Program-made: the position numbers and the translations under genes
Virus record (IMG/VR): IMGVR_UViG_3300048854_000267
Location: 1-48,860 of that record
Reading direction: 5' to 3' (one strand)
Length of the DNA: 48,860 nt
Source: a virus
Taxonomy: Duplodnaviria > Caudoviricetes
Shown: one piece after another, positions 632 to 48,223 of the stretch
Numbering within the stretch: position 1 is the stretch's first letter
How the letters are laid out: each line of letters begins with the position of its first letter
The notes under the pieces: generated by a model
Told to the model about the DNA's origin: nothing
Databases searched by the model: none
The model's input: the letters and a program-made list of their open reading frames with translations, nothing else

Positions 632-775
632 ATGCATAACGCACTCGCTCAGGCACTGATTAAAGCTGGCTTCGCAAAGCAGGAAGATAAGCGGGGTAAG
701 TTCAAGGAAGGAACCAGCATGAAGCTGTCGTATCGAACGTATCAGGCGCTTAAGGCACAAGGTATCGTTGAATAA
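632..775 (+). CDS. small basic early protein (47 aa, MHNALAQALIKAG...)
   Basis: Read manually; AAGGA RBS at 621-625; below the ORF-track cutoff. Confidence 0.7.
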   Translation: MHNALAQALIKAGFAKQEDKRGKFKEGTSMKLSYRTYQALKAQGIVE

Positions 776-818
776 ACACGTCTGTACACTTGACACTTTG
801 TAACTGTTCATCTATCCT
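774..818 (+). promoter_or_regulatory. sigma70-type promoter TTGACA-N17-TATCCT embedded in repeated element CACGTC-N9-GACACTTTGTAAC (copy 1)
   Basis: TTGACA 790-795, TATCCT 813-818; the 13-mer core recurs at 4139, 5291 and 48197. Confidence 0.75.
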
Positions 819-1446: not shown

Positions 1447-1633
1447 TAACTAGATTCTCATAAGCACGTTGACGTTTGAGTCAGTTCCCCCTTAGTCCCC
1501 CATAGATCGAGGACAAGGAGGGTGTGCGAATTCTCATGAAGTATCGAGTTGTCGCCAGTTCCCCACAAGGTTTCCCTTGCACATCTAATTACAGATGTGC
1601 GGTATCAATTTATACATTCTTCGGAGTAGGTTT

Positions 1634-3145
1634 ATGAACATTCGTGATATTCAAGTTGGCATGCGTCTTATCTTCGGTCAAGAGAAGCTTCGTATGACCA
1701 AGGGGAAGGCATATGAAGTGGTTGCAATCAAGGATGAACGGCAAGGCGAATTTGGTATTGCCGAAGTGCGGGACGACATTGGAGTAAAGCGTGGCTTCTA
1801 TGCTCGTCGTTTCGAACGTATTGCAGAAGAGGCTGCTCCTGCGCTCAATCTTCGAGTTGGTGATATCGTCTATTGGGCAGCTAATCGTGGTGCTGATTAC
1901 GAAGTTCTTGATGTTCGTTTCCAAAATGACAGGAACGAAGTGAATGTGAAGGTGGTTGGCGAAGGTAACTTCGCACTCGGCTGGTGGAATGAGAAAGACT
2001 TCAATCTGGTTAGGCGTGCAAATGCAGAACCACAAGCTATCATCAAGCTCGAAGTTGGCAACCACGTAAAGGTTGTCAAGAAGCAGGAAGGCGGAAAGGC
2101 AAATCTTCGCTGGGACGCAGCGATGGATGCAACAATCGGCAAGGTGTACAAGATCGAAGCGTATTTCGAACGTGCCAATAGCTACCAACTTTCAAATGGC
2201 TGGAGCTATCTGACCGAATCTCTCGAACTCGCAAAAGAAGAGGATATCAAGGTGGCAAAGAAAGCTGTGAAGAAGTTTCCTGATTTGCGCAGCTTGATTG
2301 CACACAGCCGCAAGGAAGATATCAAAGACGTTGGTGGTGTATCAAGCTATGTTGTGTTCGTTAAGAATATGGACACTGGTGAGATTACGCTGAACAAACA
2401 TCTTCGTGATGTGTGTCATGCTCGCTTGTCCGTGTATTACCCGGATCGGAAAGTGAACAAAGAAGCTGTCGCTGTGATTGATTACCAGCAAGAGCATTAC
2501 AAGCAAGTTGAAGTACGTGCTGGAAAGGAATTCATTCCGAGCTACAAGAAGTTTGTTGATTACATCGTCAATCGTTCACCTTGGGCTGTTGCATTCCAAG
2601 GTAAGACAGTGAAGAACGTGCTGGAGAATGGCGTTCTGATGAACGTAGAAGCTCCCAGTGGGGCTGTTGCAGGTGCATGCCAAGCTCTACGTTATCTGTC
2701 CGAGTTCGCCTATAAGAACGAAATCTGGAAGCTTCTGATGGACAACGGAATTCAGGAAGATGCAGCATTCCTGACAACGTATGCACTCAACAAAGAAGAA
2801 AATGGTACGTTCACCAAGAATCCGATGGGTGGGGGGCATCAGCCCATCAATGGGGCAATCTCTGCTGGTTCGCTGATTTCGTTCTTTGCCAATGGCTACA
2901 ACGAAGCGTTCCTCAAGAGCGAGCCGTATCGAACTTGTACCAGCTACGTTGTCCACAGGCATGTTGAAGAAGTTAAAGATGTGTTGCATCTTCCGAATGC
3001 ATACAACACGTACGTATCAGCTAACGTGGAATGGACGAAGAAGAAAGAAGGTTGGGCTGAAGTGAAATTTGCAACTGAAGAACAAGTGCTGGCATTTGCT
3101 CGTCATCTGGAACAACAAATCATCAAGGCAAAGGAAGCGAAGTAA
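1634..3145 (+). CDS. hypothetical protein with three N-terminal SH3/KOW-like repeats; first gene of the amide-ligase cluster
   Basis: ATG 1634 has GGAGTAGGT RBS (preferred over 1595); repeated 'VG(D/M/N)x(V/L)...G..Y(E/K)(V/I)' modules; TAATG-coupled to the GATase. Confidence 0.8.
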   Translation: MNIRDIQVGMRLIFGQEKLRMTKGKAYEVVAIKDERQGEFGIAEVRDDIGVKRGFYARRFERIAEEAAPALNLRVGDIVYWAANRGADYEVLDVRFQNDRNEVNVKVVGEGNFALGWWNEKDFNLVRRANAEPQAIIKLEVGNHVKVVKKQEGGKANLRWDAAMDATIGKVYKIEAYFERANSYQLSNGWSYLTESLELAKEEDIKVAKKAVKKFPDLRSLIAHSRKEDIKDVGGVSSYVVFVKNMDTGEITLNKHLRDVCHARLSVYYPDRKVNKEAVAVIDYQQEHYKQVEVRAGKEFIPSYKKFVDYIVNRSPWAVAFQGKTVKNVLENGVLMNVEAPSGAVAGACQALRYLSEFAYKNEIWKLLMDNGIQEDAAFLTTYALNKEENGTFTKNPMGGGHQPINGAISAGSLISFFANGYNEAFLKSEPYRTCTSYVVHRHVEEVKDVLHLPNAYNTYVSANVEWTKKKEGWAEVKFATEEQVLAFARHLEQQIIKAKEAK

Positions 3146-3768
3146 TGAAATACGTCTACATCATCAACGGCAATGCGCAATATCGAGCCTTGTTCGAAGA
3201 ACTTGGCTATGAAATCGCTGATGAGTTGCCCCTTGCAGATTTGGTGGTATTCACTGGCGGGGCAGATGTGTCTCCTGAGTTGTACTGGGATAAGAAGCAC
3301 CAGTACACAGGCAATGACATTGCACGAGATATGTTCGAAATGCGCATGTTCGACAAGGCTAAGGATTTGGCTATTCCTATGGTGGGCATCTGCCGTGGTG
3401 GTCAATTCTTGAACGTAATGAACGGTGGACGTATGTACCAGCATGTTGAGAAGCATGCGATTCACGGTACACATGAGATTGTGGATATGGAAACTGGTGA
3501 ACACATCCAAGTGACATCCACACATCATCAAATGTTTATGCCTGCCGACAACGCTATCATCGTTGCAATTGCTACGCTGGGTGGTGAACGTGAATGGTAT
3601 GACGGTGAAGTGTTCAAGCGTGATGTGAGCAACACCGATTACGAAGTGCTGTATTACAAGGACACCAACAGCTTGTGTTTTCAGCCTCATCCTGAATTCA
3701 ATGGCGAAGGGTATGAAGGAATGAAATCCTATTTCGCTGGTCTACTCAACAAATATCTCGGAGTCTGA
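3145..3768 (+). CDS. class I glutamine amidotransferase / peptidase C26 (PuuD-like gamma-glutamyl hydrolase family)
   Basis: FTGGADV, nucleophile elbow GICRGGQ, STHHQ, and QPHPE completing the Cys-His-Glu triad. Confidence 0.92.
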   Translation: MKYVYIINGNAQYRALFEELGYEIADELPLADLVVFTGGADVSPELYWDKKHQYTGNDIARDMFEMRMFDKAKDLAIPMVGICRGGQFLNVMNGGRMYQHVEKHAIHGTHEIVDMETGEHIQVTSTHHQMFMPADNAIIVAIATLGGEREWYDGEVFKRDVSNTDYEVLYYKDTNSLCFQPHPEFNGEGYEGMKSYFAGLLNKYLGV

Positions 3769-3769
3769 C

Positions 3770-4114
3770 ATGTGGGAAAAGATTTTGGCTCGATTGGGCA
3801 TCCATAGCTACGAAGTGTTCGGGAATGAAGATCATCTTCCGTGCTACATCAACCGTGCAACTGTGCGAGACAGCATTGAGAAGATTGCAGACATTCGAGA
3901 CTACATCGAAGGTTGTAAAGAGCACAAGGCAAACCGTATCAGCACGTTGCTATTCAGTGTGACAGAGCAAGACAAGTGGCACAAGAAGTGGCTGAAGGTT
4001 GCAGAAGAAGAAGGGCATGTTGTAATAGAAGGCGCAAGCATCCACGGTGATTACAAGTGTTGGTCCATCATCGTCAAGAATGACAAGTTTCAAGGAATGG
4101 CGTACTACCGCTAA
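3770..4114 (+). CDS. hypothetical protein (114 aa)
   Basis: GGAG RBS; tightly packed in the operon. Confidence 0.8.
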   Translation: MWEKILARLGIHSYEVFGNEDHLPCYINRATVRDSIEKIADIRDYIEGCKEHKANRISTLLFSVTEQDKWHKKWLKVAEEEGHVVIEGASIHGDYKCWSIIVKNDKFQGMAYYR

Positions 4115-4123
4115 GGGATTTGT

Positions 4124-4151
4124 CACGTCCATACGTCTGACACTTTGTAAC
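4124..4151 (+). repeat. repeated intergenic element CACGTC-N9-GACACTTTGTAAC (copy 2)
   Basis: Exact 13-mer core at 4139-4151, abutting the AGGAG RBS. Confidence 0.85.
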
Positions 4152-4161
4152 AGGAGAAGAA

Positions 4162-4887
4162 ATGAAAGTAGCCATCATCACTTACGTGGCAAAGGAGAGT
4201 AGCAGGACGCTTGCTAAGGCGATGGCTGCTTCTCTCAAGATACAGGTTGATGTATTTGATGCAAGCGAGTTCTACGGGACTCCTGACTTCAAACGATACG
4301 ACTATGTATTTGCATATGGCTGTAGCGCGTCTACAAGCCACAGGAAGCGCTTGAACAAGCGTGCTAATACCTTGGCATGCATTGACAAGGTGGAGACGTT
4401 CAAGAGGCTAGAAAAGGCTGGAGTGAATATCCCTTCTTGGACAAAGAATTGGAGTACAGCTACAGGAGCATGTTGGCCTACGACTGTTGTCCGCACATCG
4501 AGGACCGGACGTAAGGCCGAAGGGTTGGAATTGATTGACTACCCGGATGAATTGCCCAAGGGTGAATTGTTTACTGAGTACTTCTACCACAAGCGGGAGT
4601 ATCGGATCGTTGTGTTCAACGGTGAGGTGGTTGGTCGGTATTACAAGAAGCGCACGATTAAGAACGGCGAAGGCTGGCACGATTTCAAGCTACAACCGGC
4701 TCGTGGATTTGAGTTGATGGACGATCATTGCCTACGTGCTGCGAAGGCGTTAGGGATTGATTACGTAGGTTTTGACGTGGTTGCGAACACCAAGAAAGAC
4801 TTCAAGGTGTTGGAAGCTAACAGTGGACCAATCATTACTGATGAAGCTAAGGCAGCTATCATCAAATTTTTCAAGGGCAAGAAATGA
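4162..4887 (+). CDS. ATP-grasp amide ligase (RimK-like) no. 1
   Basis: DK..F..L...GV..P, REYRIVVF, GFDVV...LEANSGP motifs. Confidence 0.88.
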   Translation: MKVAIITYVAKESSRTLAKAMAASLKIQVDVFDASEFYGTPDFKRYDYVFAYGCSASTSHRKRLNKRANTLACIDKVETFKRLEKAGVNIPSWTKNWSTATGACWPTTVVRTSRTGRKAEGLELIDYPDELPKGELFTEYFYHKREYRIVVFNGEVVGRYYKKRTIKNGEGWHDFKLQPARGFELMDDHCLRAAKALGIDYVGFDVVANTKKDFKVLEANSGPIITDEAKAAIIKFFKGKK

Positions 4888-5270
4888 AGAAAACCATTAG
4901 TGCGGTTTTGTTTGCATGTGCTGCTGTGGCAATGTCCGGGTGCGATATCCAAGACAGCAAGGTTGCTTCACAAAACTTGAGTCAAGACGCTGACAACTTC
5001 AAGGTTGGTCGTCACATCAGCTTCATCAATACCCGCACTGACAATCGAATCATGGAGATTGTTGGTCTGTGTAGCATTGAATCAGGCACAAGCAGTAGCT
5101 CCATCGCCGTGATTTGCAAGGATGGCGGTGGCTACAAAAAGAACATTGTGGCTCTGTCTCAAGATGTGACGTATGTAGTAGAGCAGTTGGATTACAAAGA
5201 CGTGTCCACCGCTCAATTCAAACTTGTCATCAAACCTTCTTCGCTGATTCCCGCAATCGAACTGCGTTGA
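4884..5270 (+). CDS. lipoprotein (128 aa)
   Basis: MKK + hydrophobic stretch + lipobox MSG-C. Confidence 0.85.
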   Translation: MKKTISAVLFACAAVAMSGCDIQDSKVASQNLSQDADNFKVGRHISFINTRTDNRIMEIVGLCSIESGTSSSSIAVICKDGGGYKKNIVALSQDVTYVVEQLDYKDVSTAQFKLVIKPSSLIPAIELR

Positions 5271-5272
5271 TT

Positions 5273-5304
5273 AAACACGTCTGTACTCCAGACACTTTGT
5301 AACT
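5273..5304 (+). repeat. repeated intergenic element (copy 3)
   Basis: AAACACGTCTGTACTCCAGACACTTTGTAACT; 29/32 identical to 774-805. Confidence 0.9.
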
Positions 5305-5319
5305 CTCATAAGGATTGAT

Positions 5320-6684
5320 ATGTGCGGCATCGTAGGTATGGCAGGTGAGTTGGACGGTAAGACAGACAAAGTACTCAAGCAATTGTTGATTTTTGACAGC
5401 GTTCGTGGAGAGGATTCAACTGGTGTTGCTTCTGTTGGTCGTCACAATGACGAAGTGATTGTGGCTAAACAGCTTGGCAATCCTTTTGAACTGTTCGAAC
5501 ATCGTCTGTACCCGAAAGCGATTGCACAGAGTCAGAATCGTGTGGTGATTGGTCACAATCGCTATGCAACGGTTGGTGGTGTTAGCCGCGCAACAGCCCA
5601 TCCGTTTGAATTCAATACGCTAGTTGGTGTACATAACGGAACACTGTCCAACAAGCATGTCTTGGACAATCCGGGTGATTTCAAGGTGGACTCCGAGAAC
5701 CTGTATCACCACATCGAACGCAATGGTTTGGATGCAGCAATCAAAATCATTCGTGGTGCTTGGGCACTCGTTTGGTGGGACAAGGAAGAAGATACTCTCA
5801 ACTTCCTTCGTAATAAGGAACGTACGCTGTACTACACAGTGAACGAAGCAGGCAATCAATTGTTTTGGGCATCTGAAGCTTGGATGCTAGACATTGCTCT
5901 CGGTCGTAACGATGTGAAGCATAAAGGTATTGAAATCTTTGAAGAAGATTTTCTTCACTCTATTCCTATCCCCCGAGGTGGGAAGCTGGGAAAGCCGGTG
6001 CTACGAAAAATCGTAAACGACCCAGCCCCCGTGGTAGTGCAGCAAAGAAGCGTTTACGACAATCGAAGCTCTTTTCCGAAGGGGACGAGTTGTGCTGGTA
6101 CGTATGAGTCGTCCCCTACCACGAATGTTGTAAAGCTGGAGAAGCCTGCTGATGCAAAAGTAGACCCACGCAGCAAGGTTGATGCGAAGTTCATGCAGGC
6201 AAAAAAAACGGTTTTGGAAGCAGTAGTGGTGGTGAAGGAAAAGACTGGAGCAGAGTACGTGCTTTGCTTCTCTCCTGATCATCCGTTCTACGAAGTACGT
6301 CTCTATGTCCACAGCAAGCATGCAGTACAGCAAGACATTGGCTGTGAGTTCGAAGGGGATATCAGTGGCTTCGTTCAGACAGAGAGCGAAGGTGTTGGGT
6401 ACTACAAAGTAAGTCCTCATGGCATCGTCATCACAGCAACAGCCGATGCGAATGCCTGCCAAGCAGTTGGAACAGTTGGTGAATACCTCTCCCATGATGG
6501 CAAGTACCTTGGTAAAGCCGATTGGGAAAAGGCATACGGCCAATGTGCATTCTGTTCCGAAGATATCCAAGCAGACGACATGCTAGACAAAGGCGCACGA
6601 CTCACCAAGGCTGGTGATGCTCTGTGTGGTGGCTGCATGTCCGATCCTGAAATTGCTCAATACGTAAATACGGTGAACGTGTAA
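5320..6684 (+). CDS. class II (Ntn) glutamine amidotransferase with C-terminal Zn-finger
   Basis: MCGIVG N-terminal Cys, RG.DSTG, GHNRYAT, HPF, HNG, DSE; C-terminal CAFC...CGGC. Confidence 0.93.
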   Translation: MCGIVGMAGELDGKTDKVLKQLLIFDSVRGEDSTGVASVGRHNDEVIVAKQLGNPFELFEHRLYPKAIAQSQNRVVIGHNRYATVGGVSRATAHPFEFNTLVGVHNGTLSNKHVLDNPGDFKVDSENLYHHIERNGLDAAIKIIRGAWALVWWDKEEDTLNFLRNKERTLYYTVNEAGNQLFWASEAWMLDIALGRNDVKHKGIEIFEEDFLHSIPIPRGGKLGKPVLRKIVNDPAPVVVQQRSVYDNRSSFPKGTSCAGTYESSPTTNVVKLEKPADAKVDPRSKVDAKFMQAKKTVLEAVVVVKEKTGAEYVLCFSPDHPFYEVRLYVHSKHAVQQDIGCEFEGDISGFVQTESEGVGYYKVSPHGIVITATADANACQAVGTVGEYLSHDGKYLGKADWEKAYGQCAFCSEDIQADDMLDKGARLTKAGDALCGGCMSDPEIAQYVNTVNV

Positions 6685-6935
6685 TGAAGCTATTTGTTCT
6701 TATCAGTGATGGCGGTGATGGAAGTTACTACCCACAATATTGTACAGATCAAGCTGTAATAGATCGTCTCCGGCAAGCATTCGATGCAGACCTGATGGAT
6801 TACGAGAATGGCTTGGGCTGTGATGGCGACGGTTTTCATTACGACACAATCAACGTACAAGACACTTGGGTTCAAGATAATCCGCAAGAGCATTTGATTA
6901 CGATGAAATACGCAAATTCATTCTTTGAAAATTAA
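6684..6935 (+). CDS. acidic hypothetical protein (83 aa)
   Basis: TAATG-coupled ORF. Confidence 0.75.
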   Translation: MKLFVLISDGGDGSYYPQYCTDQAVIDRLRQAFDADLMDYENGLGCDGDGFHYDTINVQDTWVQDNPQEHLITMKYANSFFEN

Positions 6936-6949
6936 TTAAGGAGTTTTAA

Positions 6950-7738
6950 ATGGCTAAGATTCTCGTTGGTTGCGATCCTGAAGTGTTTGTGAAGAAGGAT
7001 GGCGTTTTCAAGTCGGCACATGGTCTTATTGTTGGGAACAAAAAGAGTCCCCAAAAGATTCATCGTGGTGCTGTTCAAGTGGATGGCATGGCGTTGGAAT
7101 TCAATATTGACCCGGCTGCGAGCGAGGATGAATTCTGTCTCAATGTGCAAGACGTGTTCAATGCGATGTGTGCAATGGTTCCGGGTTATGAAGTGGTGGC
7201 AACTCCAGTGGCTCACTTCGATCCTGCATACATGAAACAACAACCGGAAGAAGCTTTGGAGCTTGGCTGTGATCCTGATTTCAATGCGTGGACTGGGATG
7301 GCTAATCCGCGTCCTGATGGTGAGCGTGCTTTCCGTACTGCTTCGGGCCATGTGCATATCGGTTGGACGAATGGGGTGGACGCCTCATCGGGAATTCATC
7401 TGGCGCAAGCTAATGCGGCTGTCAAGCAGATGGACTTCTATCTCGGCCTTCCGTCCTTGCTCTATGACCCGGATAGCGAGCGTCGTGAAATGTATGGCAA
7501 GGCTGGCGCATGCCGATACAAGCCTTACGGGGTGGAGTATCGCACTTTGTCGAATGCTTGGCTCAAGAGTGAGAAGCTAATGCGTTGGGTGTTCCGTGCT
7601 GTTCAGAAGGGCATGGAAGATTTGATGCAAGGTAAGGAGCTGGTTAAGACGTTTGGTGACGTGCAGGAAATCATCAACACGTCAAACGTCACAGAAGCGA
7701 AAGCTATCATCAAACATGCAAAACTGGAGATTGCTTAA
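6950..7738 (+). CDS. phiEco32-like COOH-NH2 ligase type 2 (glutamine-synthetase fold)
   Basis: GCDPEVF, QVDGMALEFN, GCDPDFNAW, GHVHIG, RR.MYGKAG..R.KPYGVEYRTLSN; AAGGAG RBS. Confidence 0.92.
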   Translation: MAKILVGCDPEVFVKKDGVFKSAHGLIVGNKKSPQKIHRGAVQVDGMALEFNIDPAASEDEFCLNVQDVFNAMCAMVPGYEVVATPVAHFDPAYMKQQPEEALELGCDPDFNAWTGMANPRPDGERAFRTASGHVHIGWTNGVDASSGIHLAQANAAVKQMDFYLGLPSLLYDPDSERREMYGKAGACRYKPYGVEYRTLSNAWLKSEKLMRWVFRAVQKGMEDLMQGKELVKTFGDVQEIINTSNVTEAKAIIKHAKLEIA

Positions 7739-8331
7739 TGCCGCATGAAATGACAATTCACGACATTGACCAGAAATTCTGTGGCTCTGTTGTGATGTTT
7801 CAAAAGAAGCCTGTGTTGTTCAAGAAGGTGTCTGGAGACTTCAGCGTTCGCATCTTCGATTTGATGGCACAGAAAGAAGAACAGGTGGAATTCGATATGA
7901 AGCAATTCCTTCCTCCTCCTTCTCGCGTTGGCTTCGTCAACATCAATGGCAGTGTTGTCTACGCTGTTCGTAATGCCATTCGTCGTTACAAGCTAGGCAT
8001 CTCTCGTGAGAACTTCAGCGTTCAAACGTTGGAGGTTCCGTATCCTGATGGCCGTTCTGACGGGTATGTACGGCTCGTGCAGGGCTTGGAACGTCGTGAG
8101 CTTGGGGAGGCACTACTGAGTAAGTATCCGACTCTCCAACAGGCTGTACGCCGTGTTAGTCAGTTTGAGGGAGCATGCGCATTCGATAAGCAATTCGCTA
8201 TCGATCATACACACGCTGTCTTTTACAAGACTAAGCGGGCAGGGCAGTTGATTAACGGTGTCATCAAGTTTGATGAAGGCAACGAACATCTTCAAATTCT
8301 TCTGAACAAGGGCTACGAGAAATCTGTATGA
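7738..8331 (+). CDS. hypothetical protein of the amide-ligase cluster (197 aa)
   Basis: Coupled to both flanking ligase genes. Confidence 0.82.
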   Translation: MPHEMTIHDIDQKFCGSVVMFQKKPVLFKKVSGDFSVRIFDLMAQKEEQVEFDMKQFLPPPSRVGFVNINGSVVYAVRNAIRRYKLGISRENFSVQTLEVPYPDGRSDGYVRLVQGLERRELGEALLSKYPTLQQAVRRVSQFEGACAFDKQFAIDHTHAVFYKTKRAGQLINGVIKFDEGNEHLQILLNKGYEKSV

Positions 8332-9341
8332 AAAAGGTTATCGAACTTCTTGGCACCAAAAGCCAACGTGGTGACATTGGTATCGAGATTGAATGTGAAG
8401 GCAAGGGGATGATTGCGCTGGACGAAGCTGTTTGGCGCAGTGAGAACGATGGGAGCTTGCGAGGGGATTACCCCGACACTCGATGTGAGTACATCTTGGC
8501 TAAACCGCTAAAGATTGACGCAGTTCCTGTTGCTCTCAATGAACTCTCCAACCGTCTGAAAGAGGTTGGGGCAGTCTTGGAATTCAGCCATCGTTGCAGC
8601 GTACACATTCATGTGAATGTGCAGCAGCTTGAGTATCAACAGCTTCTCGCATTCATGTATGCCTACTACCTGCTTGAAGAACCGTTCATGACCTTCTGTG
8701 GGAAGGCACGTAAGGGCAATAACTTCTGCCTTCGCTTGCAGGATGCTGAAGGTGTGCTGGATGTGGTTAATGCAATGTTTAGCCAAGGTGAAGATGGTAT
8801 TCATCTTATCCGCCCTGATGCACAACGCTATGCCGCTATGAACTTCGAAGCGCTGCGTAAGTATGGCAGCGTGGAGTTTCGAGGAATGGAAGGCAACATG
8901 GATATTAAGCGAATCACTACTTGGTGTAATGCCTTGATTCGTATGCGTCAGTTTGCAGTGAAGATGGACACTCCCACTGCTGTGTACGACCTGTTCATGC
9001 AAAAGGGTCCGGTTGATTTCGTGGCAGAAGTGTTGGGGGATATCGCTGACAGCTTCCATTACCTTCGTCTGGTGAAGGATGTTCAGAAGTCCTTCTCACT
9101 CAGCCTTGATCTTCCCTTTAAGTTTGCTGAATTGATTAGCAAACCGAAAGAGGTAGAAGGGGAATACAAGCTCGGCCAGTTGGTGACCTACGCTGTAGCT
9201 GTGAAGCTCGCTAAGAAGAACTATCAATTCGACTATGCGCCAGATGGCATGTACAAGATTGTTGGCCTTCCTGAGAAGCCCAAGGCGCAGAAGCAAGCCT
9301 TTGCAGCAATGCAATTCGAAAACGTAGAACAGGAGTGGTAA
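8328..9341 (+). CDS. putative amidoligase (Amidoligase_2-like)
   Basis: GIEIE, DGSL, CSVHIHVN, RY.AMN, GSVEFR motifs. Confidence 0.9.
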   Translation: MKKVIELLGTKSQRGDIGIEIECEGKGMIALDEAVWRSENDGSLRGDYPDTRCEYILAKPLKIDAVPVALNELSNRLKEVGAVLEFSHRCSVHIHVNVQQLEYQQLLAFMYAYYLLEEPFMTFCGKARKGNNFCLRLQDAEGVLDVVNAMFSQGEDGIHLIRPDAQRYAAMNFEALRKYGSVEFRGMEGNMDIKRITTWCNALIRMRQFAVKMDTPTAVYDLFMQKGPVDFVAEVLGDIADSFHYLRLVKDVQKSFSLSLDLPFKFAELISKPKEVEGEYKLGQLVTYAVAVKLAKKNYQFDYAPDGMYKIVGLPEKPKAQKQAFAAMQFENVEQEW

Positions 9342-10090
9342 TGAAAATCTATCCGTACATGAATGGTAGCAAGTCCGCTAAGGCTCTGGCTGAAGGCTTG
9401 GGTATTCGGGTATTGAAACGTGAAGGCAAGCCCGTACGGGGCCATCTGGTGATTAACTGGGGATGTTCTGCGATTGACCGAGAGGTTGGTGAGAACATCC
9501 TCAATAAGCCTGTGGCTATCCAACGTGCAGCTAACAAACTTCGTACGTTTGAGACGTTCATGAAAGAGAACGTTCCTACGGTTGAGTGGACTACTGATTT
9601 AGAGATTGCACTTGGTTGGTTGAAAGAAGGAAGTGATGTTGTGACTCGTCACAAACTTTCTGGGCACAGCGGAGAGGGCATCGAAATCACCACAGCAGAG
9701 CAGTTTGCTAAGAATGAAGCGGGCCTTGTTCGTGCCCCTCTCTACACAAAGTACACGAAGAAGAAGGATGAGTACCGGATTCATGTATTCCAAGGTGAAA
9801 CGATTTTCCAACAGCGTAAGGCACGTAAGAAGGATGTTCCTGATGACCAAGTTAATTGGCAAGTACGTAATCTTACTGGCGGCTTCATCTTTGCGAATGA
9901 TGCTGTCGTTGCTCCTGATGTTGTGTTGGATGCCGCAAAGAAAGCTGTTGTGGCTTTGGGACTTGATTTTGGTGCCGTGGACGTGGGCTACAAAGATGGA
10001 GCAGCGGTTTGCTATGAAGTGAACACGGCATGTGGCCTTCAAGGAAAAAATCTTGAGAGCTATGTAAAAGCCTTCCAACAATTCCTGTAA
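9341..10090 (+). CDS. ATP-grasp amide ligase no. 2
   Basis: INWG, ANKL.TF, GHSGEGI, EYRIHVF, LGLDFGAVDV, YEVNTACG; TAATG coupling, AGGAG RBS. Confidence 0.9.
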   Translation: MKIYPYMNGSKSAKALAEGLGIRVLKREGKPVRGHLVINWGCSAIDREVGENILNKPVAIQRAANKLRTFETFMKENVPTVEWTTDLEIALGWLKEGSDVVTRHKLSGHSGEGIEITTAEQFAKNEAGLVRAPLYTKYTKKKDEYRIHVFQGETIFQQRKARKKDVPDDQVNWQVRNLTGGFIFANDAVVAPDVVLDAAKKAVVALGLDFGAVDVGYKDGAAVCYEVNTACGLQGKNLESYVKAFQQFL

Positions 10091-11998: not shown

Positions 11999-12511
11999 AT
12001 GGAACTAACACAAGAGGAAGTGCAAAAACTGTTTGATTACAACTTCATCACGGGAATTTTTAGTTGGAAGGTTTCTGTGAAAGGCACTAAAGGGAACGGA
12101 AAAAAGGCAGGGACGATAACCCATGCTGGTTACGATGATGTGTGCATCCGAGGAAAGAAGTACGGACTGCATAGAATTGCATTCTTGTACATGGAAGGGG
12201 CCGTTCCTGCCAATGTAGATCACGTCAATAACATTAAGAGTTGCAATGCTTGGCACAATCTACGGGAGGCATCCATTTCTCAGAACAGTTTCAATTGTGC
12301 AGGGAGAGGCACTAAATCAGGATACAAGAATGTGATTTACGATCCGAGAGGACGAAAGAAATGGACAGCATCTATCATCGTTAAAAAGAAACGAATCAGT
12401 CTAGGCTACTTCATGACGCCAGAAGAAGCTAATGAAGCTGCCATTGAAGCACGTAATAAACATCACGGAGAATTTGCACGACATGTCGCACACCTACCGA
12501 GTCAACCCTGA
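11999..12511 (+). CDS. HNH homing endonuclease with C-terminal AP2-like domain
   Basis: HRIAF, VDHVN...N.WHNLR, SGYKNV...W.ASI...LGYF.T.EEA. Confidence 0.9.
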   Translation: MELTQEEVQKLFDYNFITGIFSWKVSVKGTKGNGKKAGTITHAGYDDVCIRGKKYGLHRIAFLYMEGAVPANVDHVNNIKSCNAWHNLREASISQNSFNCAGRGTKSGYKNVIYDPRGRKKWTASIIVKKKRISLGYFMTPEEANEAAIEARNKHHGEFARHVAHLPSQP

Positions 12512-16221: not shown

Positions 16222-17021
16222 GACAGTGTTTGATTGACAGCGATGTAATTTGTTACGAAATCGGCTTCGCATCGGAGACGGCATGGAAACATGCCTCTCC
16301 CAACTCAGACGATCCCCCACCTTGGGATTTCGTAGAGGAGTTATTGCTACGCCGTATCGACCACATCGAACATGAATGTGAAGCAACACTCCCCTCAATT
16401 TTTTTCTTTACAGGCAATGGCAATTTTCGCTATGAGTTGGCTAAACGAACTCCTTACAAGGAACGCGCTGGACACAAACCGTTTCACTACAAGAACATCA
16501 AAGCCTACATCAAGGGTGTATTCGAATACCGAGAAACGGACGGCCTTGAAGCAGACGATCTTATGTCGATTGAGCAAACTCTTCGACCAGACGAAACCAT
16601 TATCTGCACTAGAGACAAAGACTTGCGCAGTGTGGATGGATGGCATTTTGGATGGGAGTTGGGAAACCAGCCTTCGTTCGGACCTCTCCGAGTGGATGGT
16701 TATGGAGCTATTTTTCTTAGTGACGACCGCAAGAAAGTCACAGGGTATGGGCTGAAGTTCTTCCTAGCTCAGTGCCTCACTGGCGACAGCGTAGATAGCG
16801 TACCCGGATTGCCCAAATGCGGGCCTGTAGCAGCCTTCAACATCCTTGCCAATACCAACACCTATGCCGAAGGCATCCATGCCGTCTCAGAGGCTTACAT
16901 GGCTCGCTATGACGAAGGTTACTACGAAGCGCTTGAGGAACAGGGTAGGTTGCTGTGGATGACTCGCAAGCTTAACGAGGATGGTACGCCTGTCCTATGG
17001 GATGTGCATGCCACGTACTGA
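16215..17021 (+). CDS. 5'-3' exonuclease (T7 gp6/FEN-like)
   Basis: LIDSD, NFR, YK..R, LEADD, RDKDL, GDSVDSVPG. Confidence 0.93.
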   Translation: MVRQCLIDSDVICYEIGFASETAWKHASPNSDDPPPWDFVEELLLRRIDHIEHECEATLPSIFFFTGNGNFRYELAKRTPYKERAGHKPFHYKNIKAYIKGVFEYRETDGLEADDLMSIEQTLRPDETIICTRDKDLRSVDGWHFGWELGNQPSFGPLRVDGYGAIFLSDDRKKVTGYGLKFFLAQCLTGDSVDSVPGLPKCGPVAAFNILANTNTYAEGIHAVSEAYMARYDEGYYEALEEQGRLLWMTRKLNEDGTPVLWDVHATY

Positions 17022-17397
17022 GTTTAATGGAGGAAAGTGGACGGAAGCGAAGTTTCACTCATTCGTCAAATCAGCATTGCGGGCTGCTTCTCGCAAGTGG
17101 CCTCCGAAGTTCGAAACGATAAACGATGCATATGTAGGAACCCAAATCAATGCATCAAGTGGTCGCCTAGCAAAGCACTTCCGGTGTGCAGCTTGTGCAG
17201 GCTTATTCACCAGCACGAACATTCAGGTTGACCACATCCACGCTATCATCGATCCAAAAATCGGCTTCACCAATTGGGATGATGTTGTAAGCGCTATGTT
17301 CTGTGAAAAAGAAAATCTACAGGTTCTATGCAAGCCGTGTCACAAAATCAAGACGGCTGAAGAACGAAAACTAAAAAAGGAATCTAAGAATGGATAA
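17008..17397 (+). CDS. HNH endonuclease (Zn-binding)
   Basis: CAAC, QVDHI, NLQVLCKPCH..KT. Confidence 0.88.
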   Translation: MPRTEFNGGKWTEAKFHSFVKSALRAASRKWPPKFETINDAYVGTQINASSGRLAKHFRCAACAGLFTSTNIQVDHIHAIIDPKIGFTNWDDVVSAMFCEKENLQVLCKPCHKIKTAEERKLKKESKNG

Positions 17398-47809: not shown

Positions 47810-48190
47810 ATTTCTCTGAGAAATTTAGAAGGTGAAGTGCACATAGCATCAGACCCCCAACACCCCCGGGAGGGGCTTGCTGCGCTGCATCAATTCCGCC
47901 TTCGGCATTCGATAGACGACATTACTCCTATAATGTCGTGTTTGAGTTGTTACACATTTCTAAGGGAATACCCTGTTGACAAGAACGTCACTGCGTGACA
48001 TGTAGGTGCCTATGTTTGGGGCACAATGACCCTGTGAGGCAATATTCATTGGAGTATGCAGGGGTGCAAACTGGCGCAAACCCAAGCTGGATAAGGCTGT
48101 ACGCCCTACGGGCAGGTATTAAAAACACGCCTACGGCATCGCTAGATGTGTTGCTCACAATACACATAGGGAATACACCTATAGGTACGT
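47810..48190. other. divergent non-coding region, probable location of the genome termini
   Basis: Longest gene-free stretch; both arms diverge from it; several inverted repeats. Confidence 0.55.
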
Positions 48191-48194
48191 ATGC

Positions 48195-48223
48195 TTGACA
48201 CTTTGTAACTAGATGTGTAAACT
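48195..48223 (+). promoter_or_regulatory. sigma70-type early promoter TTGACA-N17-TAAACT containing GACACTTTGTAAC (copy 4)
   Basis: TTGACA 48195-48200, TAAACT 48218-48223; first promoter of the early arm. Confidence 0.82.

What the first reader, a model, noticed from the sequence alone, without database searches (positions are those of the whole stretch)
1634..10090. Expanded phage amide-bond assembly line: two ATP-grasps, two GS-fold ligases, two GATase classes and a lipoprotein
Seen: about 8.5 kb (17% of the genome) is one tightly coupled run of class I GATase/C26, ATP-grasp 1, lipoprotein, class II GATase, COOH-NH2 ligase, amidoligase and ATP-grasp 2, with catalytic motifs intact and several unknown genes interspersed. 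Known: related modules occur in phiEco32, LUZ24 and PA11/CW02/RIO-1-like phages and have been proposed to make gamma-glutamyl/peptide linkages; to my knowledge the product is uncharacterised. Differences here: a second ATP-grasp, an embedded lipoprotein, and no recognisable gamma-glutamylcyclotransferase. Inference: the phage builds a non-ribosomal peptide or peptide tag of up to four amide bonds. Possible uses are envelope modification for superinfection exclusion, tagging host proteins, or an anti-defence metabolite.
Basis: partly seen in the sequence, partly recalled or inferred. Interest (0 to 1): 0.85.

Follow-up and report, generated by a model that had tools for sequence, protein, structure and literature searches.

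The report
Phage amide-ligase cassette, swappable second ligase
An uncultured phage carries a gene cassette already known from many phages but never tested, predicted to add and remove glutamate-linked amide bonds; its extra ATP-grasp ligase is a distinct subfamily that likely stands in for the usual one, and its lipoprotein is likely a passenger.

Summary
The genes are real and intact. Their core order (unknown, C26, class II GATase, COOH-NH2 ligase, unknown, amidoligase, ATP-grasp, primase) is that of PA11/TC6, GP100, CVT22 and CW02, so the cassette is known; this scan met it before in at least 33 other genomes.

Of the three claimed differences:
- No GGCT: normal here. Six of ten named phages have C26 instead, three have GGCT only, one has both.
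- Lipoprotein: a common phage family (912 records), found in 0 of 51 related cassettes.
- Second ATP-grasp (AG1): a real subfamily not found in GenBank phages, always inside the cassette, lacking the RxN lid loop. But five complete genomes have only AG1 and the closest relatives only AG2, so it likely replaces AG2 rather than adding a fourth bond.

AG1 and the lipoprotein sit between two copies of a 40-nt repeat; close relatives hold a SprT-like gene there.

New lead: the first 'unknown' gene has invariant C/S/R/E/H and a weakly Dop/PafA-like fold.

Most likely: cytoplasmic gamma-glutamyl add, extend and remove chemistry; the target is unproven, a host protein tag slightly favoured. New variant of a known kind; interest 0.38.

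The parts
1634..3145 (+). U516: core cassette gene; variable N-terminal repeats plus a conserved C-terminal domain with invariant C274, S328, R366, E370, H415 (numbered from the ATG at 1595); candidate extra enzyme with a weakly GS/GCS-like (Dop/PafA) fold
   Evidence: C, R, E, H in 151 of 151, S in 150 of 151; pLDDT 93.5; same fold in CW02, CVT22, RIO-1, GAP52, PaP4 proteins; Dop Z 5.2, rmsd 4.7, 177 aligned
3145..3768 (+). Class I GATase / peptidase C26; predicted gamma-glutamyl-amide hydrolase
   Evidence: solved relatives include PuuD, E 9e-5; best NCBIfam hits are two gamma-glutamyl hydrolases, below their cut-offs
3770..4114 (+). U114: sporadic small protein of unknown function
   Evidence: (7 of the 51 other loci)
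4113..4152 (+). Copy of the 40-nt repeat CACGTC-N9-GACACTTTGTAAC; left edge of the variable slot; likely promoter or regulator site
4162..4887 (+). AG1: second ATP-grasp ligase, RimK/LysX family, own clade; keeps K76, R148, D205, E218, N220; lacks the VRN lid loop
4884..5270 (+). Lipoprotein of the widespread phage family PF25682 / phrog_478; Cys20 lipobox; likely a passenger
5265..5304 (+). Second copy of the 40-nt repeat; right edge of the variable slot, upstream of GATase II
5320..6684 (+). Class II (Ntn) glutamine amidotransferase with Cys2 and a C-terminal CxxC...CxxC predicted zinc finger
   Evidence: two CxxC in 50 of 51; xCG start motif in 50 of 51
6684..6935 (+). U83: sporadic small acidic protein (phrog_13236)
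6950..7738 (+). COOH-NH2 ligase type 2 (PF14395), GS/GCS-type by family assignment
7738..8331 (+). U197: core cassette gene (phrog_11055) between the two ligases; N-terminal SH3/Tudor-like barrel; no obvious catalytic residues; possible adaptor
   Evidence: best Z 5.6, weak
8328..9341 (+). Amidoligase_2 (PF12224), GS/GCS-type by family assignment
9341..10090 (+). AG2: the usual cassette ATP-grasp (phrog_2599), RimK-like, with WQVRNLTGG lid loop and EVN; the ORF finder starts at GTG 9335, the Shine-Dalgarno spacing favours ATG 9341

Best explanation
This is the conserved phiEco32/PA11-type phage amide-ligase cassette with a repeat-bounded variable slot, and it likely works in the cytoplasm as a gamma-glutamyl add, extend and remove pathway that needs one ATP-grasp of either subfamily. 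Shown: gene content, order, motifs, the slot and the presence patterns. Inferred steps: (1) one GS/GCS-type ligase activates the gamma-carboxyl of glutamate with ATP and joins it to an amine; (2) GATase II supplies ammonia from glutamine to the other ligase, which amidates a carboxyl; (3) a RimK/LysX-type ATP-grasp adds a further amino acid, probably glutamate; AG1 and AG2 are alternative versions of this step, probably with different acceptors because AG1 has lost the lid loop; (4) C26 here, GGCT in other phages, removes the gamma-glutamyl group. The target I rank first is a host protein tagged during early to middle infection (about 0.35), recognised through the SH3-like and zinc-finger parts. 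The lipoprotein is a co-transcribed passenger. My odds by step: known cassette 0.95, lipoprotein not needed 0.85, gamma-glutamyl chemistry 0.7, AG1 replaces AG2 0.65.
For: Core order shared with GP100, Asterion, TC6, CVT22, two oyster phages and CW02; 319 GenBank phage records hit the ligase. C26 and GGCT are near-complementary in ten named phages: both 1, C26 only 6, GGCT only 3, neither 0; the RIO-1 locus has GGCT and no C26. C26's relatives are gamma-glutamyl hydrolases. Over 52 non-redundant loci: AG2 only 21, both 14, AG1 only 8, cut off on one side 9, neither 0. In the ligase-anchored IMG/VR loci that could be judged (27 of 32): 7 both, 5 AG1 only, 15 AG2 only, 0 neither; Fisher p 0.0098, not corrected for kinship; AG1-only loci fall at about five places on the tree. 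Whole-genome searches: one ATP-grasp, AG1, in G001, G004, G005, G008, G009 (all 100% complete); one, AG2, in G007 (97%). All 22 AG1-anchored loci and one MAG contig hold the cassette. Both ATP-grasps score best on RimK/MptN-type glutamate ligase models. Only the lipoprotein has a signal-like hydrophobic N-terminus. In PaP3 the cassette genes are early to middle genes (PMC4707531, passages).
Against: No biochemistry here or in the papers found; substrate and order of steps are inferred. All family scores for the ATP-grasps and C26 lie far below the NCBIfam cut-offs, so glutamate specificity is not shown. Fourteen loci keep both ATP-grasps at 32-64% identity to the window's copies, which argues for distinct, not redundant, roles. 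G010 (90% complete) has a frameshifted AG1 and no AG2, so a phage may manage without an intact one, or this is an assembly error. CW02 keeps both C26 and GGCT. A 93%-identical lipoprotein and a 71%-identical AG1 are each listed on a 51,962-base contig, so the pair probably recurs in a sibling; I could not fetch it. C26's likeness to PuuD fits a small-molecule substrate better than a protein.
Confidence: 0.55

Rival explanations
1. Same chemistry, but the product is a small molecule, such as a gamma-glutamylated polyamine or a short glutamyl peptide acting as a metabolite, signal decoy or anti-defence compound.
For: C26 resembles PuuD and gamma-glutamyl-CDP-amidate hydrolase. GS-like ligase plus C26 is the PuuA/PuuD logic, and GGCT removes a protecting gamma-glutamyl group in butirosin synthesis (both recalled). 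All enzymes look cytoplasmic.
Against: Two conserved partner proteins with SH3-like parts and a zinc finger on GATase II fit a macromolecular target better. No substrate-supplying gene is conserved beside the cassette.
Confidence: 0.25
2. The cassette remodels peptidoglycan precursors or cross-links, for superinfection exclusion or to prepare the wall for lysis (the published hypothesis).
For: Stated in PMC5498523, PMC11945000 and PMC10580990 (passages), all citing Iyer 2009 and Hardies 2013. Wall precursors are cytoplasmic and hold a gamma-D-glutamyl link (general knowledge).
Against: Those passages give prediction only. The ATP-grasps score as RimK/MptN-like, with no D-Ala-D-Ala ligase model among the hits. 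The one envelope protein is absent from 51 of 51 related cassettes.
Confidence: 0.22
3. One reading: a four-ligase line that builds up to four amide bonds and works with the lipoprotein at the envelope.
For: Four ligase genes with intact motifs; 14 loci keep both ATP-grasps; AG1 and the lipoprotein overlap by 4 nt.
Against: AG1-only and AG2-only complete genomes. The two closest relatives (91-93% ligase identity) hold a SprT-like gene in the same slot. The lipoprotein family is found in 912 phage records, and 15 of 15 fetched homologue loci show no cassette gene, several of them short.
Confidence: 0.07
4. Auxiliary nitrogen metabolism: the genes run a gamma-glutamyl cycle or ammonia assimilation that feeds phage replication.
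For: Proposed for phage ZRK32 with a growth phenotype (PMC10945688, passages). The cassette lies next to the primase/helicase in nearly all loci.
Against: In the passages I read, that phenotype was not tied to these genes by mutants. The ligases have no solved host relative, and phage-only partner proteins are conserved with them.
Confidence: 0.05

Closest known systems
Zobellviridae form of the phage amidoligase cassette: Pseudomonas phages PA11/TC6 and GP100, Citrobacter phage CVT22, Klebsiella phage Asterion
   Same: Identical core and order: U516 homologue, C26, GATase II, COOH-NH2 ligase, U197 homologue, amidoligase, ATP-grasp, then primase/helicase; no GGCT.
   Different: They have one ATP-grasp (AG2 type) and no PF25682 lipoprotein; other small genes fill the slot.
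Salinivibrio phage CW02 and Pseudoalteromonas phage RIO-1 / PSA-HP1 'peptidoglycan modification cassette' (PMC5498523)
   Same: Same ligases, GATase II and one ATP-grasp; U516 fold homologues in both.
   Different: CW02 has C26 and GGCT; RIO-1 has GGCT and no C26 in the locus; neither has AG1.
phiEco32/GAP52- and LUZ24/PaP3-type cassette (Pfam PF14395, PF12224; Iyer et al. 2009, not held, known from citing passages)
   Same: COOH-NH2 ligase, amidoligase, GATase II, ATP-grasp beside the primase.
   Different: GATase II follows the amidoligase; GGCT in place of C26; two upstream unknowns that match the U516 fold (GAP52 twice, PaP4 once weakly).
RimK / LysX / MptN alpha-L-glutamate ligases (TIGR00768)
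   Same: Best family hits for both ATP-grasps; ATP- and metal-binding residues align.
   Different: Scores far below cut-off; AG1 lacks the RxN..GG loop that RimK and AG2 share.
PafA/Dop pupylation writer and eraser
   Same: GS/GCS-fold enzymes that make and break gamma-glutamyl isopeptides (general knowledge); top fold matches for the U516 domain.
   Different: Z is only 5.0-5.2; U516 lacks the ExE strand; no Pup-like tag or proteasome gene seen.

Membership tests
phiEco32/PA11-type phage amidoligase cassette | COOH-NH2 ligase type 2 (PF14395) | tested here: met
   34 bits over cut-off 25; phrog_3815, E 3e-91
phiEco32/PA11-type phage amidoligase cassette | Amidoligase_2 (PF12224) | tested here: met
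   40.3 bits over cut-off 22
phiEco32/PA11-type phage amidoligase cassette | Class II GATase with Cys2 | tested here: met
phiEco32/PA11-type phage amidoligase cassette | RimK-like ATP-grasp (phrog_2599) | tested here: met
   AG2 E 1e-82, AG1 E 1e-24
phiEco32/PA11-type phage amidoligase cassette | A gamma-glutamyl-removing enzyme (GGCT in some members, C26 in others; my generalisation from ten named genomes) | tested here: met
   C26 present, GGCT absent; the same state as six named phages
phiEco32/PA11-type phage amidoligase cassette | Clustered upstream of the primase/helicase | tested here: met
phiEco32/PA11-type phage amidoligase cassette | Modifies peptidoglycan or blocks superinfection (published prediction) | not testable with these tools
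   needs experiments; passages give prediction only
RimK-family alpha-L-glutamate ligase (AG1) | ATP- and metal-binding K, R, D, ExN | tested here: met
   K76, R148, D205, E218, N220 invariant in 106 sequences
RimK-family alpha-L-glutamate ligase (AG1) | RxN..GG lid loop | tested here: not met
   0 of 23 AG1, 41 of 41 AG2 (alignments)
RimK-family alpha-L-glutamate ligase (AG1) | Score over the TIGR00768 cut-off | tested here: not met
   32.4 bits against 143.4; it works like one, it is not filed as one
GS/GCS fold, Dop/PafA-like (U516 C-terminal domain) | Structural match to the GS/GCS fold | tested here: inconclusive
   Dop Z 5.2, rmsd 4.7, 177 aligned; PafA Z 5.0, rmsd 4.6, 176 aligned; 11 of 50 rows are GS/GCS-fold entries by title and recall; Z under 8 may be a common arrangement; Foldseek found none
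GS/GCS fold, Dop/PafA-like (U516 C-terminal domain) | Mg/ATP-binding ExE on the first strand | tested here: not met
   first strand has no conserved acidic pair; the invariant residues are C, S, R, E, H elsewhere
Phage lipoprotein PF25682 / phrog_478 | Family score and lipobox Cys | tested here: met
   141.6 bits over cut-off 27; signal-like N-terminus with a Cys in the window's protein and its 16 listed homologues

The most novel reading that the evidence does not exclude
The cassette is a phage-encoded, reversible protein-tagging system in the manner of pupylation and RimK glutamylation: the two GS-type ligases and an ATP-grasp write a glutamyl-amide tag on host proteins, U516 is an unrecognised Dop-like eraser or sixth enzyme with its own C/H/R/E site, and phages retarget the tag by swapping AG1 for AG2 and by exchanging genes in a promoter-bounded slot.
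Probability: 0.17. Interest if true: 0.85.

Novelty: new variant of a known kind. Interest (0 to 1): 0.38.

Why it matters
More than 300 sequenced phage records of E. coli, Pseudomonas, Vibrio and others carry this cassette, and no product turned up in my searches of papers since its 2009 prediction. This uncultured genome does not make that question easier to test than cultured TC6, CVT22 or LUZ24 do. It adds three constraints for anyone who tries: C26 and GGCT look interchangeable, which points to a gamma-glutamyl intermediate that can be trapped; two ATP-grasp subfamilies look interchangeable, which gives a natural specificity swap; and the first 'hypothetical' gene has an enzyme-like invariant site and should be included in any reconstitution.

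Tried and rejected
Lipoprotein as a module part, missing GGCT as a novelty, and the four-bond line: rejected on distribution (see rivals). The PHROG label 'recombination directionality factor' for the lipoprotein does not fit its signal peptide and lipobox; not used.

U516 as a GNAT: the Atlas gave weak GNAT rows (TM under 0.45) from a poor model, pTM 0.24; my confident model did not return GNATs in the rows shown. Profile-profile comparison of U516 with either ligase found nothing, but it also failed to link the two ligases to each other, so it has no power here. No solved relative for either ligase family. U197: only weak SH3/Tudor matches for residues 1-60; the rest is barely tested. U114: no usable Atlas hit, one GenBank relative.

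A described phage with two ATP-grasps: AG1 queries gave best identities under 34%, and the listed rows are annotated as the usual gene. The AG2 search gave 319 places in 313 records; the rows I saw (60 spread, 60 best, partly the same) all had one place, so up to six records with two places were not seen.

Carrier-peptide idea: small genes in CW02, CVT22 and Asterion end in LEEN-x or LEN-E/K, but most of these ends overlap the next gene's GGAG site, and the window has only a weak 'FFEN'; set aside.

No Rfam match in the window; sigma-70 promoter and terminator scans were below chance. Sequencing runs: no RNA holder listed; I did not lay reads. Complex prediction of U197 with the two ligases was not available, so binding is untested. 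The careful ATP-grasp tree did not finish; the quick tree was used. One of my regular expressions (the G-x-D row) was faulty and is ignored.

Literature searches that showed no biochemical product and no second ATP-grasp: (open-licence library only). Iyer 2009 and Hardies 2013 are not held; no supplements were read, and genome tables in supplements could mention a second ATP-grasp.


Full report
Context. The window is a whole virus record of 48,860 bases, 98% complete, classed 'provirus' by IMG/VR. It has a primase/helicase, ECF-like sigma factor, family A polymerase, ThyX and ribonucleotide reductase on the + strand, and podovirus structural genes on the - strand. The nearest named relatives are Zobellviridae at 50-62% ligase identity, so I infer that it belongs to or near that family. 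The host is unknown; one AG1 homologue is named as a Burkholderia territorii protein, a weak hint.

Observation. Eleven + strand genes fill 1634-10090 (8457 bp, 17.3%). Most junctions overlap by 1-4 nt or nearly abut. The exceptions are gaps of 47 nt before AG1, 49 nt before GATase II and 14 nt before the COOH-NH2 ligase.

The core is known. The ligase hits 319 of 50,697 GenBank phage records and AG2 hits 313. GP100, Asterion, TC6, CVT22 and two oyster phages have the same order from the U516 homologue to the primase; CW02 matches from C26 onward, where its record begins. PMC5498523, PMC11945000 and PMC10580990 (passages) describe the cassette as a predicted wall-modifying module and cite Iyer 2009 and Hardies 2013, which I could not read. 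PMC10945688 (passages) offers a nitrogen-metabolism reading. PMC3890496, PMC6209634, PMC3517423 and PMC4281155 (passages) only list the genes; the last reports the ATP-grasp and amidotransferase of phage SU10 in its mass-spectrometry table. PMC7824862, the Lipocone preprint and PMC10318531 (passages) had nothing on this cassette. Earlier notes of this scan hold 34 such findings in at least 33 genomes and none similar to AG1 by sequence.

Claimed difference 1, no GGCT. The window lacks it, but so do GP100, Asterion, TC6, CVT22 and both oyster phages; all six have C26. PaP3, GAP52 and Slicky01 have GGCT and no C26, and CW02 has both. The RIO-1 locus has GGCT and no C26. C26's solved relatives include PuuD, and its two best NCBIfam models are gamma-glutamyl hydrolases, below cut-off. 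Both enzyme types remove gamma-glutamyl groups (general knowledge). I infer that C26 does GGCT's job and that the pathway passes through a gamma-glutamyl amide.

Claimed difference 2, the lipoprotein. It is a real lipoprotein of PF25682 / phrog_478, with relatives in 912 phage records led by Mycobacterium and Bacillus phages. None of the 51 other cassette loci has it, and none of 15 fetched homologue loci shows a cassette gene, though several are only 1-3 kb. Against this: a 93% homologue and a 71% AG1 homologue are each listed on a 51,962-base contig, so a sibling phage probably has the same pair.

Claimed difference 3, the second ATP-grasp. AG1 has 185 homologues among 464 candidates, the best 120 at 40% identity or more, but none above 34% in GenBank phages. 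It forms its own clade of 23 rows against 41 AG2 rows (SH-aLRT 100, quick tree, midpoint root; L064 left out) and is a clear paralogue of AG2. K76, R148, D205, E218 and N220 are invariant in 106 sequences. The VRN loop, which aligns with the RxN..GG loop of RimK-type enzymes (PMC10375531, passages, calls the matching region an ATP-binding loop), is in 41 of 41 AG2 and 0 of 23 AG1. AG1 was inside the cassette in 22 of 22 AG1-anchored loci and one MAG contig. Across 52 non-redundant loci (13 duplicate contigs dropped) the states are AG2 only 21, both 14, AG1 only 8, cut off 9, neither 0. Five complete genomes have AG1 as the only ATP-grasp, and the close relative G007 has AG2 only. In 27 of the 32 ligase-anchored loci the table 7/5/15/0 gives Fisher p 0.0098, uncorrected for kinship; losses are scattered over the tree. 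So one ATP-grasp of either kind seems needed, which argues against a fixed four-bond line. Against: 14 loci keep both, and G010 has a frameshifted AG1 and no AG2.

The variable slot. A 13-mer occurs exactly four times (792, 4139, 5291, 48197), with a fifth two-mismatch hit; shuffles give a mean of 1.4 at two mismatches and none reached five. Three copies extend to a 40-nt repeat. Two bracket AG1 plus the lipoprotein. In L008 and L009 (93% and 91% ligase identity) DNA similarity breaks at these same two copies, and the slot holds a HExxH gene with a weak SprT-like hit, below cut-off. The copies at 792 and 48197 overlap TTGACA with a -10-like hexamer 17 nt on; the internal ones do not. I infer a promoter or regulator site, perhaps for the phage sigma factor; untested.

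The unknown genes. U516's C-terminal domain is in nearly all Zobellviridae-type loci where that region is present, has 2704 representatives at E under 0.001, and keeps C274, R366, E370 and H415 in 151 of 151 and S328 in 150 of 151 sequences. Its model is confident (pLDDT 93.5) and matches uncharacterised proteins of CVT22, CW02, RIO-1, GAP52 and, weakly, PaP4, so it is a core member across families. Foldseek found no solved match. VIA-align ranks Dop (Z 5.2, rmsd 4.7, 177 aligned) and PafA (Z 5.0, rmsd 4.6, 176 aligned) first, and 11 of 50 rows are GS/GCS-fold proteins. That Z is within what common arrangements give, and the ExE strand is missing, so this is a lead for an extra enzyme, not an assignment. 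U197 lies between the two ligases in the Zobellviridae-type loci, has a weak SH3/Tudor-like N-terminus and no obvious catalytic residues.

Mechanism. Shown: content, motifs, distributions, slot. Inferred: a cytoplasmic pathway (only the lipoprotein has a signal-like N-terminus), active early to middle in infection as in PaP3 (PMC4707531, passages), in which GS-type ligases gamma-glutamylate an amine and amidate a carboxyl with ammonia from GATase II, one ATP-grasp extends the chain, and C26 or GGCT removes the gamma-glutamyl group. I rank targets as host protein 0.35, small molecule 0.25, wall precursor 0.22. The protein reading rests on RimK-like ATP-grasps, binding-type partner domains, the zinc finger and the Dop-like hint; none of this is proof.

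Verdict. A new variant of a known, unsolved phage cassette. Interest 0.38.

Noticed in passing
GATase II starts in L003, L006, L008, L010, L013, L014, L017, L020, L024, L026, L030, L032, L045, L048, L049: In 15 of 51 loci the codon before the catalytic Cys2 is ATT or ATC with a Shine-Dalgarno-like site a few bases upstream, so GATase II is predicted to use a rare isoleucine start codon, which could put it under IF3-type control. The window uses ATG.
   Followed up: partly
L001 (CW02), L003 (Asterion), L005 (CVT22), small ORFs in and around the cassette: 7, 12 and 17 small ORFs, many SH3-like by eye, end in LEEN-x, LENK or LENE. Most overlap the next gene's GGAG, but a few keep the peptide without it, so a C-terminal docking motif is possible.
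   Followed up: partly
window 766-805 and about 48175-48215: Two more copies of the repeat coincide with sigma-70-like early promoters (TTGACA, 17 nt, TATCCT or TAAACT); conserved in L008 and L033.
   Followed up: partly
window 1455-1600: Intergenic stretch upstream of U516 conserved in L033 and L008, including TTCCCCACA; no Rfam match.
   Followed up: partly
L035:2106-2810 and L062 near 7993: A third, long-branch ATP-grasp subtype sits in the AG2 position.
   Followed up: no
L064:1494-2179 (G010): AG1 is split by a frameshift and AG2 is absent; a true loss or an assembly error.
   Followed up: partly
L006:5748-6434, L007:5952-6617, L010:7640-7981: Slot genes with a short 'PxCC'-like motif that look acetyltransferase-like by eye; no Pfam hit.
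   Followed up: partly
whole window: IMG/VR classes the record as a provirus and its proteins are listed on a 165,575-base contig, yet no integrase appeared among the 56 ORFs scanned.
   Followed up: no
window 11999-12511, 16981-17397: Two HNH endonuclease genes among the replication genes; ordinary.
   Followed up: no
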